Assembly (NCBI GenBank): GCA_964627795.1
Contig: CAZVLF010000004.1
Location: 18,790 to 82,789 of the forward strand
Length of the DNA: 64,000 bases
Origin: an uncultured Rickettsiales bacterium
GTDB taxonomy: Bacteria > Pseudomonadota > Alphaproteobacteria > Rickettsiales > CANDYO01
Direction of reading: 5' to 3'
Shown here: one piece after another, positions 34,077 to 42,753 of the stretch
Position numbering within the stretch: position 1 is the stretch's first letter
Layout: each line of letters starts with the position of its first letter
Notes under the pieces: generated by a model
Databases searched by the model: none
Told to the model about the DNA's origin: nothing
What the model saw: the letters and a program-made list of their open reading frames with translations, nothing else
Position numbers and translations under genes: made by a program

Positions 34077-34108
34077 AAGTGAGCTTTTATTAAGAGCTCA
34101 CTTTTCAT
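34077..34108 (+). terminator. Rho-independent terminator of the mdh-sucCD unit
   Basis: Perfect 9-bp stem AAGTGAGCT (34077-85) / AGCTCACTT (34095-103), running into a T-run (34102-05), 10 nt after the sucD stop. Confidence 0.7.
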
Positions 34109-34277
34109 ATCAAATTCTCTTTTCTAAATTATATAATAGTTTTTCTCGAAGCTAGTGATTCTTGATTTACTTATATTATCCTACAATCTTTATTGACAAA
34201 GTTCCTGATAAACTATATAGCTTGCTTAGTTAATGTTTTTTAACAAATAGAATTAATATATAAAGCAGGTTATAATT

Positions 34278-35738
34278 ATGTCTAAAGTATCTTTTTCTAA
34301 AAATAAAATATGGGAAGTATTTATAAAGGCTTTTACAGGTGAGCCAGAACTAACTGTAGTAGGAATAGATAATCAATATATAACATTTAAAATATTGCCT
34401 GGCAAAATTAGCGACTTATTTAAAGACCATGAATCCATAAAAGGTAAAGTTATTCATGGCTACTCTAATGTTGCTGTAAAAAGCTCCTTTTTGACATTAA
34501 ATGGAGGCCAAGTTATTGCTGAATTAATAGACCCAAAATTTCTTGAGACTTTAGATTTAAATATAGGTGGTGATATATGTACAGACGATATAACCCATCA
34601 TATTATGACTTGCGAGATTAGTGCAAATACACCATTTCAATTAAAGAAAGAAGTAAGTAAGTTTTCAGATTTACAAATTTTATTTAGTGATGAAAAGCAA
34701 ATCACCGAAGTGATGCTAGGTGATAGAAAAACATTAAAAGAAGAAGATTTTACAGGGATAGTATCTTCTTATGGAAAAGAAGTAATAAGAATTTCTTTAG
34801 ACAATTTGAATAAAAAAGCCAAAATAATATTTAACTATGGAAAACTTACCTTAAGTGCAGAAGAAGAATTATCAAATAAAAAATTGGATGTCATTTGCGA
34901 TAGTGAGAACGAATGTAAAGTAAATAAACATGATTTATTAGGATATGCACAAAGAATATTTCCTTCAGGTGTTATATTTACAAAAGCTGATAATGGAAAA
35001 TTACAGCCAATTTTATTTCAGTCTTTGAAAGCAGATAAACCAAACCAATTCCAAAGTACTAATTTCAATTTTATAGTAGACGTAAGTGGTAGTATGAGTA
35101 AGGAAATGACCGATATGAAAAATAAATTAGTGGATTTAGTGGCAAAAGCCATAGAAGGCACTAACAATTGGACGGTTAGTATTACCCCTTTCGACACTAT
35201 TTCCCGTGATACAGTAAGTTTTTCAAGTGCTAGATCTAACTTAGCTTCAATAACCTCTTATATTAAGAGCTTAAAAGTTGGTGATTATACAGCTTTATAT
35301 AATACAATGCATAAAGTTTATAACCAAGAGATAGGAATGGCATCAGATAAAACAAATTCTGTAATTTTTACACTTAGCGACGGTGGTGATAATAGAAGCA
35401 TTCAAAGCGAAGAGAGTGTAATTTCCAAAATGAAAGAATTAAGAAAAGTATCTCCACAATCTACAATGTATTTAGTGGGTTATGCCCATTATCCTACTGA
35501 ATTTTTTGATTCTTTAAGCTCAAAAACAGCTGCTAAGACAATTCATTTAGATGTAATTAGTCATTTAGAAGAGCTAAAAACAGAAATAGAAACTATCAAT
35601 AATTGTAAGGTTCTTTATAAATTTGGTAGTGACCAATTTGCGCAATGTGCCGCAGGAGATATTACTATTCCTTCATTCACAGTAGATGAAGATATTTCTA
35701 TTAATGTAGCTGGTGAAAGCTATGCTATAGCTTTATAA
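34278..35738 (+). CDS. von Willebrand factor type A (vWA) domain protein with an unknown ~250-aa N-terminal domain
   Basis: 486 aa, no signal peptide. Complete MIDAS set: FIVDVSGSMS (DxSxS), GDYTALY (Thr) and LSDGGDN (Asp). Confidence 0.6.
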   Translation: MSKVSFSKNKIWEVFIKAFTGEPELTVVGIDNQYITFKILPGKISDLFKDHESIKGKVIHGYSNVAVKSSFLTLNGGQVIAELIDPKFLETLDLNIGGDICTDDITHHIMTCEISANTPFQLKKEVSKFSDLQILFSDEKQITEVMLGDRKTLKEEDFTGIVSSYGKEVIRISLDNLNKKAKIIFNYGKLTLSAEEELSNKKLDVICDSENECKVNKHDLLGYAQRIFPSGVIFTKADNGKLQPILFQSLKADKPNQFQSTNFNFIVDVSGSMSKEMTDMKNKLVDLVAKAIEGTNNWTVSITPFDTISRDTVSFSSARSNLASITSYIKSLKVGDYTALYNTMHKVYNQEIGMASDKTNSVIFTLSDGGDNRSIQSEESVISKMKELRKVSPQSTMYLVGYAHYPTEFFDSLSSKTAAKTIHLDVISHLEELKTEIETINNCKVLYKFGSDQFAQCAAGDITIPSFTVDEDISINVAGESYAIAL

Positions 35739-35858
35739 GCTATATAATAAATTTGTGCTTGTTGAGCTAGAATGATTATATAGAATTATTCTCATATTAA
35801 CACTTTTTTAAGATCTTAAAGTTACTATACAATTGAAGTGACTTTAAGAACAACATAA

Positions 35859-36612
35859 ATGAACATACTAAAAATATTTCATCGTATATGGATGGTTTTT
35901 GATATTAATCAGCCATCAATTCCAGAAAAGTATAAAAAGCTAGATTTAAAATTAAAAGAACTACATTCTGACTGGAAATTCATAGAGTGGAATGACAAAA
36001 CAGTTCTAGAATTTATAAAGCTAAATTATAATGATTTTCTTGAGACATTCTTATCCATATGATGTACCTGTGAAAAGAAGTGATTCAGCAAGATATTTGA
36101 TTTTAAAGCATTACGGCGGGGTTTTTATTCAACATAGCTTTGTACTTCAAAAAAATATAGAAGCACTTCTTGAATATGGAAATATAATTTTCACAAAACA
36201 AATCAACTTAGAACTAGTGAAGGGAGCTGTCGCAAATGGTTTTTTAGCTAGCACAGCCCAACATGGGTTTTGGGATGTTTTAATTCCTCGCATGATTAAA
36301 AGTAAAAATATGTATGTACTTGAAGCAACAGGACCTGGTTTCTTAACGAATACTATAAGTTTATATAATAATAGATCTAGTGACGTAATAGTGCTTGAAA
36401 GAGACGCTTTACTTCCCTTCGATTGGATTGAAAAAAATAAACCTTTAATTAAGCAAAAATGTATAAATGGTTTGTGGGACTGCTTTGAATTATATCCTGA
36501 TTCTTATGGTTTTTGTCTGTGGAATGCTTCGTGGCATAGCATGACTCAACTTGAGCAAGTTTTAGTGTTAGATTTATATAGAAAAGGAGGCTTAGAAGAG
36601 TTGGATATATAA
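35859..36612 (+). pseudogene. frameshifted, DXD-less glycosyltransferase (Gly_transf_sug / OCH1-TcdB-like sugar-binding region)
   Basis: The two track ORFs (35859-36062 and 36031-36612) join as ...IFHRIW...NYNDFLETF / SYPYDVPVKRSDSARYLILKHYGGVFIQHSF. One frameshift lies near 36045-36060. The expected DXD after YGG is QHS. Confidence 0.6.
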
Positions 36613-36639
36613 AATGGAAGAAAACATATAAAACCACAA

Positions 36640-40285: not shown

Positions 40286-40362
40286 GGGCGGTTAGCTCAG
40301 TTGGTTAGAGCGCAGCGTTGACATCGCTGAGGTCGGAAGTTCGAGTCTTCTACCGCCCACCA
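40286..40362 (+). tRNA. tRNA-Val (anticodon GAC)
   Basis: Acceptor GGGCGGT/ACCGCCC, anticodon loop TTGACAT, T-loop TTCGAGT, encoded CCA. 77 nt. Confidence 0.9.
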
Positions 40363-40688
40363 TAACTAATGGTAGCGATACATTCACACAACCCAGCTTA
40401 TCCTACCAAATAACCATCTTAACATAACGTAGTTGCTAGCTTTCGTGTTTCTCTATGTTACTCTGAAATAGCGTTTATTTTATCAAATTCAGATAAATTT
40501 TGCTCAAGTTTTAGTACGATTTAAGTCTCCAAACTCTAATTAAGGTATTGATTATTAGCAAAGTAACAAACTATTAATTATTGCATAATAGTTAATTCAT
40601 TAAAATTAGAGTCAATCTATTGCAGGAAGTATGTTAATTATGATTAATATTTATTTTATAATAACTTTAACGGTAGCAAGTAAAATTT

Positions 40689-41702
40689 ATGAATATGCAA
40701 ATTACATCAAACAACATATATAAATATTGTGAAAAAAGTTTATCATCTTCATATTATGAGGTTTTTAAAAATTTTTCAGTAGATCAAAAGAACACTTATT
40801 GCGCTATGTATGAACTGAAAAATGTTCAACAAAATAAATATGGCATTGGTCAAACATTTCGCTTACAAACCGCAGATACAGAATACAAAACTATTACCAT
40901 CATTAAAACAATTGGAGAAGGTGGATTTAAAAAAGCAGCTCTTCTTGATGATAGCACCGTATTAATGTTTCCAAATATTGATACTAATTCACTAGAATCC
41001 AGAACTTATGCTTGGACCATTACGGTAGATAATGAAGCTAATACCGCTAAGTTTATAGAAGATATCAATGTGCCTGGGTTAAACAGAAAAAAAGCTTATC
41101 TTGAAGTTCAAAGTAATGATATTACCTACAAGCTTCCAGTGTTATTATCTGATTTATTTGCGCAATATGCAGAAAAAGGTTTGTTTATGAGGGATGTTAA
41201 AAATCCTCTATCGTCATTCATTTCAGCTAAAGAAAAAAGGTCATTGGGGGTATAATTATGAAGTTTGGGAAGAACCAATTAAACCTTTAGTTCGAGATGT
41301 TGCAACTATAGTATTAAATGGGTTTCAACAGATCACTGGAGATGCTGGAAACATTGTTCTTAAAGAAAATGATAATGGTAATTATGAATTCCATTACTTT
41401 GGCTATGATTTTAATGGTCCAAACGGAGATCGAAATTCTATACATTCTGAGGCAGAGTGCGCTAGATACCAAAAATATTCTCTTACCGAGGTATGTGGTA
41501 TATAGCAGCAAAATCAAAATCACTTATTTCAGATATTGTTTATCACAGCTTATATAGTTTAAATTTAGGTAAAGAAGCACGACAAAATTCTGAAGCAACA
41601 GAAAAGTTTTCATATAGTGTTGGTGATCATTTTTTAACATGTGATTTTATCAAACAAGCGGTAAGAGAAAACATACATAGTAATCATTTTGAGGAGTTAT
41701 AA
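40689..41702 (+). pseudogene. protein-kinase-like gene broken by two frameshifts
   Basis: Three consecutive track ORFs in frames 0/+1/0. They carry a Gly-rich loop TIGEGGFKKAAL, a catalytic-loop-like ITGDAGNIVL and a DFG-like FGYDFNG. Shifts are at the A6/G5 runs (41233-41250) and near 41490. Confidence 0.55.
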
Positions 41703-41707
41703 TTAAT

Positions 41708-42565
41708 ATGACGAAATGTGAAATTACAATTTTTTTAGAGCATCATGACGATAAGGGAGCCACTGAGACCATTAAGTCTCTTCTAGCTCCGTTAAAAGCT
41801 AGAGGTTATATTAATTATTTATTCGAAGAACCAAGTGACCAAAATTATGCTGCAACAACGAATGCGCTTAAAATCGCCAAAAATTATTACTTAAATGTGT
41901 TATTGGATGAGGACCTTAGGTCGAGCATAGAAAACACAGTTTATATAGGACTAAATAATAAAGAGTTAGCAGAAATACTAGCAAATTCAAGAAACATACC
42001 GGATCTAGAGGAAATTGGTCAGCAATTTAGAGAAATAAAAGAATCCTATGATGCTACTTTAAAATTATTATACCACACACAAAGATAAGGATTTAAAATT
42101 TATAATATTGATATGCCTATGGTTATGAGAAATGAGCATGAAGAGCTTTATGCTTCTGATGATCAAGTTCAGACTAAAGAAAATATAGAAAAAAGAAACG
42201 AATATATGGCAGATCAAGCTCAAACAATCTGTCAGGATGGTGGAAATAAGCAGGTGCTTTTGGTGGGATTATAGCATCATGGTATTGCAGAAGTTTTAGA
42301 AAATAGAGGATTTACAGTAAATAAAATAGCAGTTTTTGCCAATAAACCTATTTCAATAGAAAACTTACCTCAAGGACTATCTCAAGCTCAAATAGATGAT
42401 GTATTGTATAGCTCTAGGGTGAGAAATATTTCCAGTCCTGAGCATCAAGCAATTAATAATTTCACTTTAATTGATTTATATCAAAATCCTGATTTAAATT
42501 ATAATACTGTAATTCTTGGGGAATTAGATAAAACTATCCAGTCTAATATAGGCGTGGAGTTATAA
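41708..42565 (+). pseudogene. unknown-family gene interrupted by two in-frame stop codons
   Basis: My own translation continues in the same frame past TAA 42086-88 (…YHTQR*GFKIYNIDMP…) and TAG 42272-74 (…QVLLVGL*HHGIAEVLENRG…) to TAA 42563-65. About 285 codons in total. Confidence 0.5.
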
Positions 42566-42753
42566 TTTGCAATTTGCACTATCCACCTACTCGGTTGTCA
42601 ACACTAAAAAATTGTCTTGAGCTCTGGATGCAGTAGAAACCTTAGAATCATTGCGCAGAAAAAAGTCCGAAAAAGGTGTCATTCACTCCACCATTAATTT
42701 ACAGCTTGACAAGATTAGTTTGATATACTAAATTTCAAGTTCCTCATAAAGAG

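What the first reader, a model, noticed from the sequence alone, without database searches (positions are those of the whole stretch)
34108..42753. tRNA-punctuated accessory segment between the sucCD terminator and the cox operon
Between two deeply conserved units (mdh-sucCD ending at a clean terminator, and ctaCD) lies about 8.6 kb with no housekeeping gene. It holds a vWA protein, a frameshifted DXD-less glycosyltransferase, a FlaR-like P-loop NTPase, two small coiled-coil ORFs with consensus SDs, a low-complexity lipoprotein, two further pseudogenes, and three tRNA genes (Thr-GGU, Val-GAC, Ile-GAU). tRNA genes are classic integration points. The mix of orphans and decay suggests a hotspot of gain and loss, although no integrase or direct repeats were detected by eye.
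Basis: partly seen in the sequence, partly recalled or inferred. Interest (0 to 1): 0.6.

Follow-up and report, generated by a model that had tools for sequence, protein, structure and literature searches.

The report
Variable gene slot after sucD
In this intracellular (Rickettsiales-like) bacterium, the 4 kb between the sucD gene and a threonine tRNA gene holds completely different genes in each related lineage and several of them are decaying, which is ordinary genome plasticity for such bacteria and shows no sign of a tRNA-targeted mobile element.

Summary
The three tRNAs, sucD terminator, vWA protein, frameshifted glycosyltransferase, FlaR-like NTPase, two SD-preceded coiled-coil ORFs, low-complexity lipoprotein and two broken genes are all there. 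The stretch has the lowest long-ORF density in the window (57% against 89%).

It is not one island but a composite:
- **34068-38308** is a replaceable-cargo slot. The closest relative (L087, SucD 93%) shares rho-mdh-sucCD up to the sucD stop codon. It also shares tRNA-Thr(GGT), a small conserved ORF and the lipoprotein tail. It carries 4.1 kb of unrelated genes in between. A distant relative (L010) keeps the same frame with a toxin-antitoxin pair and an orphan.
- **38309-40066** is a conserved anchor.
- **40363-42753** is decayed coding DNA with no comparator.

In all seven relative lineages whose sequence continues past sucD, the DNA downstream of sucD differs. Two carry IS630 fragments there.

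Integration at the tRNAs is not supported. There is no integrase, no tRNA-end repeat and no compositional deviation. The vWA gene also occurs elsewhere on relatives' chromosomes. The missing DXD motif is a subfamily trait, not decay.

Verdict: a plasticity locus at a recurrent synteny breakpoint, a known kind of feature of modest interest.

The parts
34075..34105 (+). Intrinsic terminator of the mdh-sucCD unit and left edge of the variable slot. Homology with relatives stops at the sucD stop codon (34067), so even this terminator is lineage-specific.
   Evidence: Fold: 14-bp stem, -16.1 kcal/mol, z = -5.8. blastn against L087 ends at 34067. L087 and L010 have unrelated sequence after the stop.
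34068..38308 (.). Replaceable-cargo slot of 4241 bp between the sucD stop and the 3' end of tRNA-Thr(GGT). The equivalent interval is 4087 bp in L087 and 3278 bp in L010, with unrelated genes.
   Evidence: No similarity among the three cargoes by tblastx (E below 1e-6) or blastp (E below 0.1).
34278..35738 (+). 486-aa protein with a conserved N-terminal domain, a vWA domain with a complete MIDAS motif and a conserved C-terminal beta region. It is intact and has full-length homologues at 46-50% identity, plus more distant ones at 31-35%, in relatives at other chromosomal positions.
   Evidence: Pfam VWA_2. Homologues P0002-P0011 and their contexts in L081 and L082. Alignment A1. Model pLDDT 80 with Foldseek hits to ITIH1, 4fx5 and ANTXR2.
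35859..36612 (+). Glycosyltransferase-like gene (Gly_transf_sug, 'IQHS' subfamily) broken by a 1-nt frameshift at about 36050-36056, not in a homopolymer run. Probable pseudogene.
36640..37155 (-). 171-aa P-loop NTPase of the FlaR / 'DNA topology modulation protein' type, with Walker A motif GRPGSGKST. Intact.
   Evidence: NCBIfam PRK08118 E = 2.3e-40, 138 bits against a cut-off of 215. Weak Pfam dNK and AAA hits.
37392..37805 (+). Small coiled-coil ORF of 137 aa from GTG 37392. ATG 37398 is more likely the start, as it lies 5-6 nt after AAGGAGG. No homologue found.
   Evidence: Weak similarity to the next ORF (27% over 70 aa, E = 0.01).
37942..38238 (+). Small coiled-coil ORF of 98 aa with a consensus SD (AAAGGAGG). 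No homologue found.
38309..38383 (-). tRNA-Thr(GGT). Its 3' end faces the variable slot. It is the right-hand conserved anchor, 75/75 identical in L087.
38453..38602 (+). Conserved 49-aa basic ORF (motif L..L..NL.RRK), divergent from tRNA-Thr(GGT). The same pair occurs in L087, L010, L099 and L100.
   Evidence: No Pfam family.
38627..40066 (-). 479-aa low-complexity (S/N/K/T-rich) probable lipoprotein. The C-terminal tail is conserved at the same position in L087.
   Evidence: No family hit. Tail match to the L087 ORF with E = 5e-6.
40286..40362 (+). tRNA-Val(GAC).
40689..41702 (+). Broken gene A: three consecutive same-strand pieces in frames 0, +1 and 0 (188, about 85 and about 70 aa). No detectable family. 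Pseudogene status is inferred from the anatomy only.
   Evidence: No Pfam, PDB or plasmid hit.
41708..42565 (+). Broken gene B: one reading frame of about 285 codons interrupted by stop codons at 42086-42088 and 42272-42274. It has weak TraB/PrgY/GumN similarity that runs across the second stop (..LLVGL*HHGIAEVLENRGF..).
   Evidence: E = 6.8e-4, 20 bits, below the gathering score of 26.8. No PDB or plasmid hit.
42754..42830 (+). tRNA-Ile(GAT), standalone and not in an rRNA spacer. It is followed by a hairpin terminator at 43028-43052 and the 3' end of ctaD.

Best explanation
The 8.6 kb is a composite stretch at a recurrent synteny breakpoint of a rearrangement-prone, host-associated Rickettsiales-like genome.

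The left part, from the sucD stop to the 3' end of tRNA-Thr(GGT) (34068-38308), is a permissive slot. Two transcription units end facing each other there, so insertions and deletions harm nothing essential. In each lineage the slot has been filled with different lineage-specific genes. These arrived by non-site-specific processes: IS-mediated transposition and translocation, illegitimate recombination, and possibly recombination across the conserved flanks. The genes then decay.

In this genome the fill is a vWA protein, a now-frameshifted glycosyltransferase-like gene, a FlaR-type NTPase and two small coiled-coil genes.

tRNA-Thr, the small 'RRK' ORF and the lipoprotein are an old, conserved anchor. 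The stretch between tRNA-Val and tRNA-Ile is the wreck of two further genes.

The tRNA genes mark block edges because they are essential and immovable, not because an integrase used them.

Shown: the conserved flanks with replaced interior, the differing content in every relative examined, IS630 at the homologous site in two lineages, the frameshift and the in-frame stops, native composition, and the absence of att repeats and integrase. Inferred: the mechanism of turnover, the ancestral status of the sucD-tRNA-Thr linkage, and any host-interaction role for the cargo.
For: 1. Conserved flanks, replaced interior.
- L087 (SucD 93%) aligns to the window at 81.5% nucleotide identity from rho to the last base of sucD (29861-34067). 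It aligns again from 38296 across tRNA-Thr. The RRK ORF and the lipoprotein tail follow.
- Its 4087-bp interior encodes DUF6314 and two orphans, all on the minus strand.
- L010 (SucD 78%) has the same frame with YefM/YoeB and a 473-aa orphan.
- The three cargoes share nothing.

2. sucD's 3' end is a general breakpoint.
- L084 is colinear with the window from bamD to sucD, then diverges.
- L085 has ctaDC upstream of mdh and other genes downstream.
- L086 has IS630 and IS200 fragments plus a 735-aa ankyrin protein.
- L088 and L089 have COX1-like, folE, asd and ksgA.
- L101 and L102 have an orphan plus an IS630 DDE_3 fragment.
- Six independent assemblies of another lineage all stop 160 bp after sucD.

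3. Cargo is native to the clade, not foreign.
- vWA homologues sit between ndk and ogt (L081) and between ispA and crcB (L082).
- Tetranucleotide z of the segment runs from -1.1 to +0.05, and GC is flat.

4. Decay.
- There is a frameshift relative to intact homologues and there are in-frame stops.
- Long-ORF density is 57% against 89%.

5. No site-specific machinery.
- There is no tRNA-end repeat.
- There is no integrase, transposase, phage, plasmid or defence hit in the segment.
Against: - The geometry is what a tRNA-targeted island would leave. The variable DNA abuts the 3' end of tRNA-Thr, and one relative carries a toxin-antitoxin pair there. An old island whose integrase and att sites have eroded cannot be excluded.
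- Simple rearrangement does not easily explain how both flanks stay about 3.3-4.2 kb apart while the interior is swapped. That pattern fits insertion plus deletion, or flank-mediated replacement, and neither was observed directly.
- No IS remnant is present in this window.
- I could not measure the genome-wide density of breakpoints, so 'hotspot' relative to the background of this clade is not established. Another breakpoint lies only 10 kb upstream at tRNA-Ala/bamD.
- The right half (40363-42753) has no comparator at all.
- The last wide protein search, on a concatenated query, returned nothing, not even self-hits. The 'no homologue' status of the small ORFs and broken genes is therefore weak.
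Confidence: 0.6

Rival explanations
1. The region holds remnants of tRNA-targeted integrative elements. Islands (for example RAGE-like ICEs or small integrase-borne islets) inserted at the 3' ends of tRNA-Thr(GGT) and tRNA-Val(GAC). The integrase genes and att repeats have since been deleted or mutated beyond recognition, leaving cargo and pseudogenes.
For: - Variable DNA starts within 13 nt of the 3' end of tRNA-Thr in the window, L087 and L010.
- The broken genes lie on the 3' side of tRNA-Val(GAC).
- L010's slot carries a YefM/YoeB module, which is common on mobile DNA.
- ICEs of Rickettsia are reported to prefer tRNA genes (PMC10732058).
Against: - No integrase, tra gene or transposase is present in any of the three slots or in the window segment.
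- There is no tRNA-end direct repeat, even at 18-mers with 3 mismatches or by local alignment.
- Composition is native.
- vWA is a chromosomal clade gene found in other contexts, without conserved flanking sequence.
- In L096 and L099 the 3' side of the same tRNA holds ordinary conserved genes, the msbA block and an LptF/G-like gene.
Confidence: 0.17
2. Cassette exchange by homologous recombination. DNA taken up from co-infecting relatives recombines through the conserved flanks (sucD on one side, tRNA-Thr and the RRK ORF on the other). This swaps the whole interior in one step, as happens at surface-antigen loci of free-living bacteria.
For: Both flanks are retained with similar spacing (4241, 4087 and 3278 bp) while the interiors are unrelated. 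The homology breaks are sharp, at the sucD stop codon and just beyond the tRNA 3' end.
Against: - No two lineages sharing the same cargo were found, so no exchange event is visible.
- Flank identity between the window and L087 is the same (about 81%) as over the whole rho-sucD block, with no locally elevated identity that would mark a recent transfer.
- Most other relatives have lost the linkage altogether, which points to rearrangement rather than allelic exchange.
Confidence: 0.15
3. The region is ancestral and stable, and its genes have merely diverged too fast to be recognised. Alternatively, the pseudogenes are assembly errors.
For: - The cargo proteins evolve fast: vWA is only about 50% identical where SucD is about 90%.
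- The frameshift and stops have not been checked against reads.
- The only second copy of the locus (L083) ends before the frameshift.
Against: - Gene number, orientation and domain families differ between lineages: vWA/GT/NTPase on +,+,- against three minus-strand genes including DUF6314.
- The vWA orthologue of relatives is demonstrably elsewhere.
- The frameshift is not in a homopolymer run, and four independent lesions occur within 2 kb.
Confidence: 0.05

Closest known systems
Plasticity zones and synteny-breakpoint regions of obligate intracellular bacteria (for example the Chlamydia plasticity zone, or the variable regions and split genes of Rickettsia). Comparison drawn from general knowledge.
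   Same: - Conserved housekeeping flanks with lineage-specific interior.
- Enrichment of pseudogenes, orphans and eukaryote-like or host-interaction domains. These are vWA and a glycosyltransferase here, and ankyrin in L086.
- IS fragments at the homologous site in relatives.
- Native base composition.
   Different: - It is small, a 4.2-kb slot.
- It lies in an unnamed clade known mostly from metagenomic contigs.
- No function of any cargo gene is known.
- Whether the site is more variable than the genome background was not measured.
tRNA-associated genomic islands and the Rickettsiales amplified genetic element (RAGE), an ICE that integrates in tRNA genes of Rickettsia (PMC10732058).
   Same: Variable DNA directly adjoins the 3' end of a tRNA gene. 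tRNA-Val(GAC) is also followed by decayed genes.
   Different: - There is no integrase, tra/T4SS genes or att repeats.
- There is no multicopy cargo and no compositional signature.
- In two other lineages the 3' flank of the same tRNA carries ordinary genes.
Gly_transf_sug (PF04488) glycosyltransferase-like domains of multidomain proteins in other bacteria.
   Same: The joined ORFs pass the Pfam gathering score. They share 45-50% identity with domains found next to GT25, GT2, ankyrin and DUF3431 modules.
   Different: - The canonical DXD is replaced by IQHS throughout this subfamily.
- Here the gene stands alone (about 250 aa, like P0139) and is frameshifted.
VIT-vWA proteins (inter-alpha-trypsin-inhibitor heavy-chain architecture) and bacterial vWA adhesin or anchor proteins.
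   Same: The MIDAS-bearing vWA fold is preceded by a beta-rich N-terminal domain. The best structural matches are ITIH1 and a bacterial vWA protein.
   Different: - There is no signal peptide, sortase signal or VIT Pfam hit.
- A clade-specific C-terminal motif is present (TINNCKV..QCAAGDI).
- Sequence identity to any solved structure is 18% or less.

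Membership tests
tRNA-targeted integrative island / RAGE-type ICE | Tyrosine or serine integrase gene next to the tRNA | tested here: not met
   No integrase family hit for any ORF or reconstructed pseudogene of the segment (Pfam; PHROGs; PADLOC). None in the slots of L087 or L010.
tRNA-targeted integrative island / RAGE-type ICE | Direct repeat of the tRNA 3' end (attL/attR) bounding the island | tested here: not met
   No 18-mer of any of the four tRNAs recurs with up to 3 mismatches in 64 kb, other than in other tRNA genes. 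The best local alignment of the tRNA-Thr region to the slot is 16 of 18 nt with a gap, at chance level.
tRNA-targeted integrative island / RAGE-type ICE | Base composition or k-mer usage deviating from the host genome | tested here: not met
   Tetranucleotide distance z from -1.1 to +0.05 across the segment. GC is 0.26-0.33, like the rest of the window.
tRNA-targeted integrative island / RAGE-type ICE | Presence/absence or content polymorphism between relatives with conserved flanks | tested here: met
   The window, L087 and L010 share sucD and tRNA-Thr flanks with unrelated interiors.
tRNA-targeted integrative island / RAGE-type ICE | Conjugation (tra / type IV secretion) genes | tested here: not met
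   No such family among the segment proteins. The TraB/PrgY/GumN hit of broken gene B is below threshold, and that family is not a conjugation component.
Plasticity locus at a synteny breakpoint of a reductive intracellular genome | Colinearity with relatives ends at the locus boundary | tested here: met
   L084, L087, L090 and L101 are colinear with the window up to sucD and differ after it.
Plasticity locus at a synteny breakpoint of a reductive intracellular genome | Insertion sequences or their remnants at the homologous site | tested here: inconclusive
   IS630 and IS200 fragments follow sucD in L086 and L102. None is detectable in this window.
Plasticity locus at a synteny breakpoint of a reductive intracellular genome | Excess of pseudogenes and short ORFs relative to the rest of the genome | tested here: met
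   Long-ORF density is 57% against 89%, the lowest 8.7-kb stretch of the window. There is one frameshifted gene and two broken genes.
Plasticity locus at a synteny breakpoint of a reductive intracellular genome | Site more variable than the genome-wide background | not testable with these tools
   This needs whole-genome alignments of several complete genomes of the clade. Only pieces of 21 kb or less could be fetched.
von Willebrand factor A domain proteins | MIDAS motif DxSxS...T...D and Rossmann-like vWA fold | tested here: met
   D268, S270, S272, T338 and D368 are invariant. VWA_2 scores 29.5 bits against a cut-off of 27. Foldseek probability is 1.0 to many vWA structures.
Gly_transf_sug (PF04488) glycosyltransferases | Pfam domain above the gathering score | tested here: met
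   41.5 bits against a cut-off of 23 for the joined ORFs.
Gly_transf_sug (PF04488) glycosyltransferases | DXD metal/sugar-nucleotide motif | tested here: not met
   The window has GGVFIQHS. The same replacement occurs in P0135-P0145, so this is a DXD-less subfamily whose catalytic competence is unknown.
FlaR / DNA topology modulation protein (adenylate-kinase-like NTPase) | Match to the NCBIfam equivalog above its curated cut-off, and a Walker A motif | tested here: inconclusive
   PRK08118 E = 2.3e-40 over the full length, but 138 bits is below the cut-off of 215. Walker A GRPGSGKST is present.
TraB/PrgY/GumN (Tiki-like) family, for broken gene B | Pfam domain above the gathering score | tested here: not met
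   20.0 bits against a cut-off of 26.8, and only the C-terminal 60 positions match. It is a lead only.

The most novel reading that the evidence does not exclude
The interval between sucD and tRNA-Thr(GGT) is a dedicated, long-lived cargo-exchange site of this Rickettsiales lineage. The frame is shared by lineages whose SucD is only 78% identical. On this reading, host-interaction genes are swapped in and out without any integrase, for example by recombination across the conserved flanks between co-infecting symbionts. That would be an unrecognised route of gene flow in obligate intracellular bacteria.
Probability: 0.1. Interest if true: 0.55.

Novelty: new member of a known kind. Interest (0 to 1): 0.3.

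Why it matters
For a genome annotator, it shows that the 8.6 kb should not be flagged as a mobile element. It also shows that the tRNA-Thr / small-ORF / lipoprotein block is core DNA, not accessory.

For people studying uncultured Rickettsiales-like symbionts, it gives one cleanly bounded locus. The flanks are easy to amplify or to find in metagenomes, and the interior differs in every lineage. Such a locus is useful as a strain marker and as a place to look for lineage-specific host-interaction genes (vWA, glycosyltransferase-like and ankyrin proteins).

It does not change what is known about how such genomes evolve.

Tried and rejected
The closer clade was found later through the protein database.
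2. Exact look-up of the window's own SucD failed twice, so the source contig could not be fetched or named. The source is only known to share DNA with GCA_006365035.1. A paper search for that accession found nothing.
It returned nothing, not even self-hits. Low-complexity candidates probably swamped it, so the result is uninformative.
4. The metagenome scan with a degenerate tRNA-Thr pattern gave only 5 loci. They were useful for the small ORF but too few for a survey of the slot.
5. Plasmid searches by DNA and protein, PADLOC and PHROGs, PDB sequence searches, and tblastn with the relatives' IS630 and IS200 proteins against the window were all negative.
6. I looked for conserved flanking sequence or inverted repeats around vWA in three genomes as a sign of a mobile cassette and found none above shuffled controls.
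7. I suspected from its GEGGF motif that broken gene A was a protein-kinase-like effector. No family or structure search supports this, so I dropped it.
8. The apparent nonsense polymorphism of vWA in L083 is five mismatches within 13 bp, on a contig with a foreign GC-rich head. I treated it as an assembly artefact.

Full report
**What the window is.** The DNA is about 30% G+C. It encodes, in order:
- uvrB, tmk and tRNA-Ala
- bamD-dnaQ-coaE-ppsR (minus strand)
- hemE-hemH-hemJ-rho-mdh-sucC-sucD
- the segment in question
- ctaD-ctaC and a DnaJ-ankyrin protein (minus strand)
- mreC-miaA, two Adr-like adhesins and an MsbA-like exporter

The best SucD relatives are metagenomic 'Rickettsiales bacterium' contigs. 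Relatives carry ankyrin proteins and an ATP/ADP translocase. The organism is therefore a Rickettsiales-like intracellular alphaproteobacterium. A 2.2-kb contig of assembly GCA_006365035.1 is identical to window 33831-36027, apart from a 13-bp cluster of mismatches and a foreign GC-rich head. The species could not be named.

**Checking the observation.**
- The three tRNAs are found by two methods.
- The sucD terminator is a 14-bp hairpin followed by a U-run, z = -5.8.
- The vWA protein has a full MIDAS motif that is invariant in 11 homologues. Its confident model matches vWA structures, best of all the ITIH1 architecture.
- The glycosyltransferase-like gene is split into two overlapping ORFs. 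Joined, they cover positions 3-87 of the 93-position Pfam model at 41.5 bits. Intact homologues read straight through the join. The lesion lies at about 36050-36056 and is not in a homopolymer.
- The NTPase matches 'DNA topology modulation protein' over its full length.
- The two small ORFs each have AGGAGG 5-6 nt before the ATG. That hexamer occurs only 17 times on both strands of the window.
- Gene A (40689-41702) changes frame twice. Gene B (41708-42565) has two in-frame stops. A weak TraB/PrgY/GumN match runs across the second stop.
- The segment has the lowest density of long ORFs in the window, 57% against 89%.

Three points need correcting:
- The absent DXD motif is shared by all close homologues (GG[VA]FIQHS), so it is a subfamily trait and not decay.
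- The vWA protein is not an orphan.
- A conserved 49-aa ORF at 38453-38602 was overlooked.

**Comparison with relatives.** The protein database holds a bushy clade whose SucD is 86-93% identical to the window's. I fetched the sucD neighbourhood from eight lineages of this clade.
- **Upstream:** order is conserved. L084 and L090 are colinear with the window from bamD to sucD. L087, L088, L086 and L101 are colinear at least from rho.
- **Downstream:** in the seven of these lineages that could be read past sucD, every one is different.
  - L084: Peptidase_C92, dnaX and a 1192-aa orphan
  - L085: an orphan and an ABC-F protein, with ctaD-ctaC lying directly upstream of mdh
  - L086: IS630 and IS200 fragments and a 735-aa ankyrin protein
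  - L088/L089: a COX1-like gene, folE, asd and ksgA
  - L101/L102: an orphan and an IS630 fragment
  - L087: DUF6314 and two orphans
- In the eighth lineage, six independent assemblies all end exactly 160 bp after sucD. That is what a repeat or population heterogeneity at that point would produce.
- An all-against-all translated comparison of the post-sucD DNA finds nothing shared except tRNA-Thr and ankyrin repeats.

**The key result.** It comes from L087, the nearest relative (SucD 93%).
- Nucleotide homology with the window runs at 81.5% from rho to the last base of the sucD stop codon (34067). It vanishes for 4.1-4.2 kb and returns 13 nt before the 3' end of tRNA-Thr(GGT) (38296). The tRNA itself is 75/75 identical.
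- Beyond the tRNA both genomes have a small basic ORF with the motif L..L..NL.RRK. Both also have the C-terminal tail of the low-complexity lipoprotein on the opposite strand.
- L010, a much more distant genome (SucD 78%), has the same frame: sucD, 3.3 kb, tRNA-Thr(GGT) on the minus strand, then the small ORF. Its interior is a YefM/YoeB toxin-antitoxin pair and a 473-aa orphan.
- The three interiors have no detectable similarity.
- The tRNA-Thr / small-ORF pair also occurs in L099 and L100.
- The 3' side of the tRNA is not always cargo. L096 has the msbA block there, which lies at 51-55 kb in the window. L099 has an LptF/G-like gene there.

**What this means for the segment.** It is three different things.
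- **34068-38308** is a slot whose content is replaced between lineages.
- **38309-40066** (tRNA-Thr, small ORF, lipoprotein) is conserved. The tRNA/small-ORF pair is old.
- **40363-42753**, between tRNA-Val and tRNA-Ile, is the wreck of two genes. I found no comparator for it.

**Mechanism.** I tested the island hypothesis directly.
- No fragment of any tRNA recurs in the window, and there are no long direct repeats.
- There is no integrase, transposase, conjugation, phage or defence family among the segment's proteins or reconstructed pseudogenes.
- There is no similarity to any plasmid in PLSDB.
- No remnant of the IS630 or IS200 elements seen in relatives is present.
- Tetranucleotide usage of the segment is indistinguishable from the rest of the window.
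- The vWA gene has full-length homologues at 46-50% identity, plus more distant ones at 31-35%, in relatives. There it sits in two other chromosomal contexts, between ndk and ogt and between ispA and crcB, with no conserved flanking sequence. It is therefore a gene of the clade that has been moved, not an import.

On this evidence, the best-supported reading is a permissive junction between two converging transcription ends, at a point where this clade's chromosomes break and rejoin repeatedly. IS elements and illegitimate recombination bring material in and take it out, and neutral decay follows.

The island reading remains possible as an ancient, fully eroded event. I rate it at about 0.17. 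Flank-mediated cassette exchange fits the preserved spacing of the flanks but has no positive evidence. I rate it at about 0.15.

**The cargo.** None of the cargo has an established function.
- The vWA protein has an intact metal site and clade-specific N- and C-terminal domains. It has no signal peptide.
- The glycosyltransferase-like domain belongs to a DXD-less subfamily. Elsewhere that subfamily is fused to GT25, GT2, ankyrin and DUF3431 modules.
- Ankyrin and similar proteins occupy the homologous position in relatives.

A host-interaction role is a reasonable guess from this company, but it is inference only.

**Limits.**
- I could not fetch whole genomes, so I cannot say whether this junction is more variable than the clade's background. 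Another breakpoint lies 10 kb upstream at tRNA-Ala/bamD.
- The 'no homologue' status of the coiled-coil ORFs and the two broken genes rests on family libraries and local comparisons only, because the last database-wide search failed technically.
- The frameshift and stops have not been verified against reads.

**Verdict.** The 'gain and loss' interpretation is supported for the left half. The 'tRNA integration point' idea is not supported. This is a new example of a well-known kind of feature of intracellular bacterial genomes, of modest interest.

Noticed in passing
window 38453-38602 (+); L087 8450-8620; L010 14350-14480; L099 12904-13077 (-); L100 near 414 (-): A 43-57-aa lysine-rich ORF with the invariant motif L..L..NL.RRK lies divergently upstream of tRNA-Thr(GGT) in five lineages, including ones with 38% GC. 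It has no Pfam family. It is a conserved small gene of unknown function that gene callers may miss. In L010 it runs in frame into anmK.
   Followed up: partly
window 35859-36612; proteins P0135-P0145: A subfamily of the Gly_transf_sug domain has IQHS where the DXD motif should be. The search found 584 hits with E below 1e-3 in the representative library. The best hits are modules of large proteins with GT25, GT2, ankyrin or DUF3431 domains. Whether these are active enzymes with a different catalytic motif or pseudoenzymes is open.
   Followed up: partly
L090-L095 (six Logan assemblies from different runs): All six contigs carrying the same SucD end exactly 160 bp after the sucD stop, with identical tails. 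This suggests a repeat or strain heterogeneity starting at that point in that lineage.
   Followed up: partly
L085 4790-10876: In one relative, ctaD-ctaC lies directly upstream of and divergent from mdh-sucCD. In the window it lies 9 kb downstream of sucD. The two conserved units are neighbours in both genomes but on opposite sides.
   Followed up: no
L083 1-32 and window 34737-34749: The GCA_006365035.1 contig that matches the window starts with 32 nt of unrelated GC-rich sequence. It also has five mismatches within 13 bp that create stop codons in vWA. This is probably a chimeric or low-quality contig of a eukaryote assembly that contains this symbiont.
   Followed up: partly
window 23774-23849 and 42754-42830: tRNA-Ala(TGC) and tRNA-Ile(GAT) are standalone genes 19 kb apart, with no rRNA in the 64 kb. 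The rRNA genes of this organism therefore probably lack the usual Ile/Ala spacer tRNAs, as in Rickettsiales with unlinked rRNA genes.
   Followed up: no
window 45515-46654 (-) and 46754-48458 (+): A 379-aa protein combines a DnaJ J-domain with ankyrin-like repeats. mreC-miaA follows without an adjacent mreB. In relative L081 the order is mreB-mreC-miaA-typA.
   Followed up: no
window 53241-55297 (-); L096 577-2685: A 547-aa protein with no family hit and a 136-aa neighbour are conserved (35-76% identity) next to msbA. In L096 they lie immediately 3' of tRNA-Thr(GGT).
   Followed up: no
window 6001-12000: This is the lowest-GC stretch of the window (0.25-0.29). Its tetranucleotide usage deviates more than that of the segment under study (z up to 2.3). 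Its content was not examined.
   Followed up: no
window 48642-50140 (-): Two tandem paralogues resemble the Rickettsia Adr adhesin (E from 1e-15 to 1e-16, below the curated cut-off).
   Followed up: no
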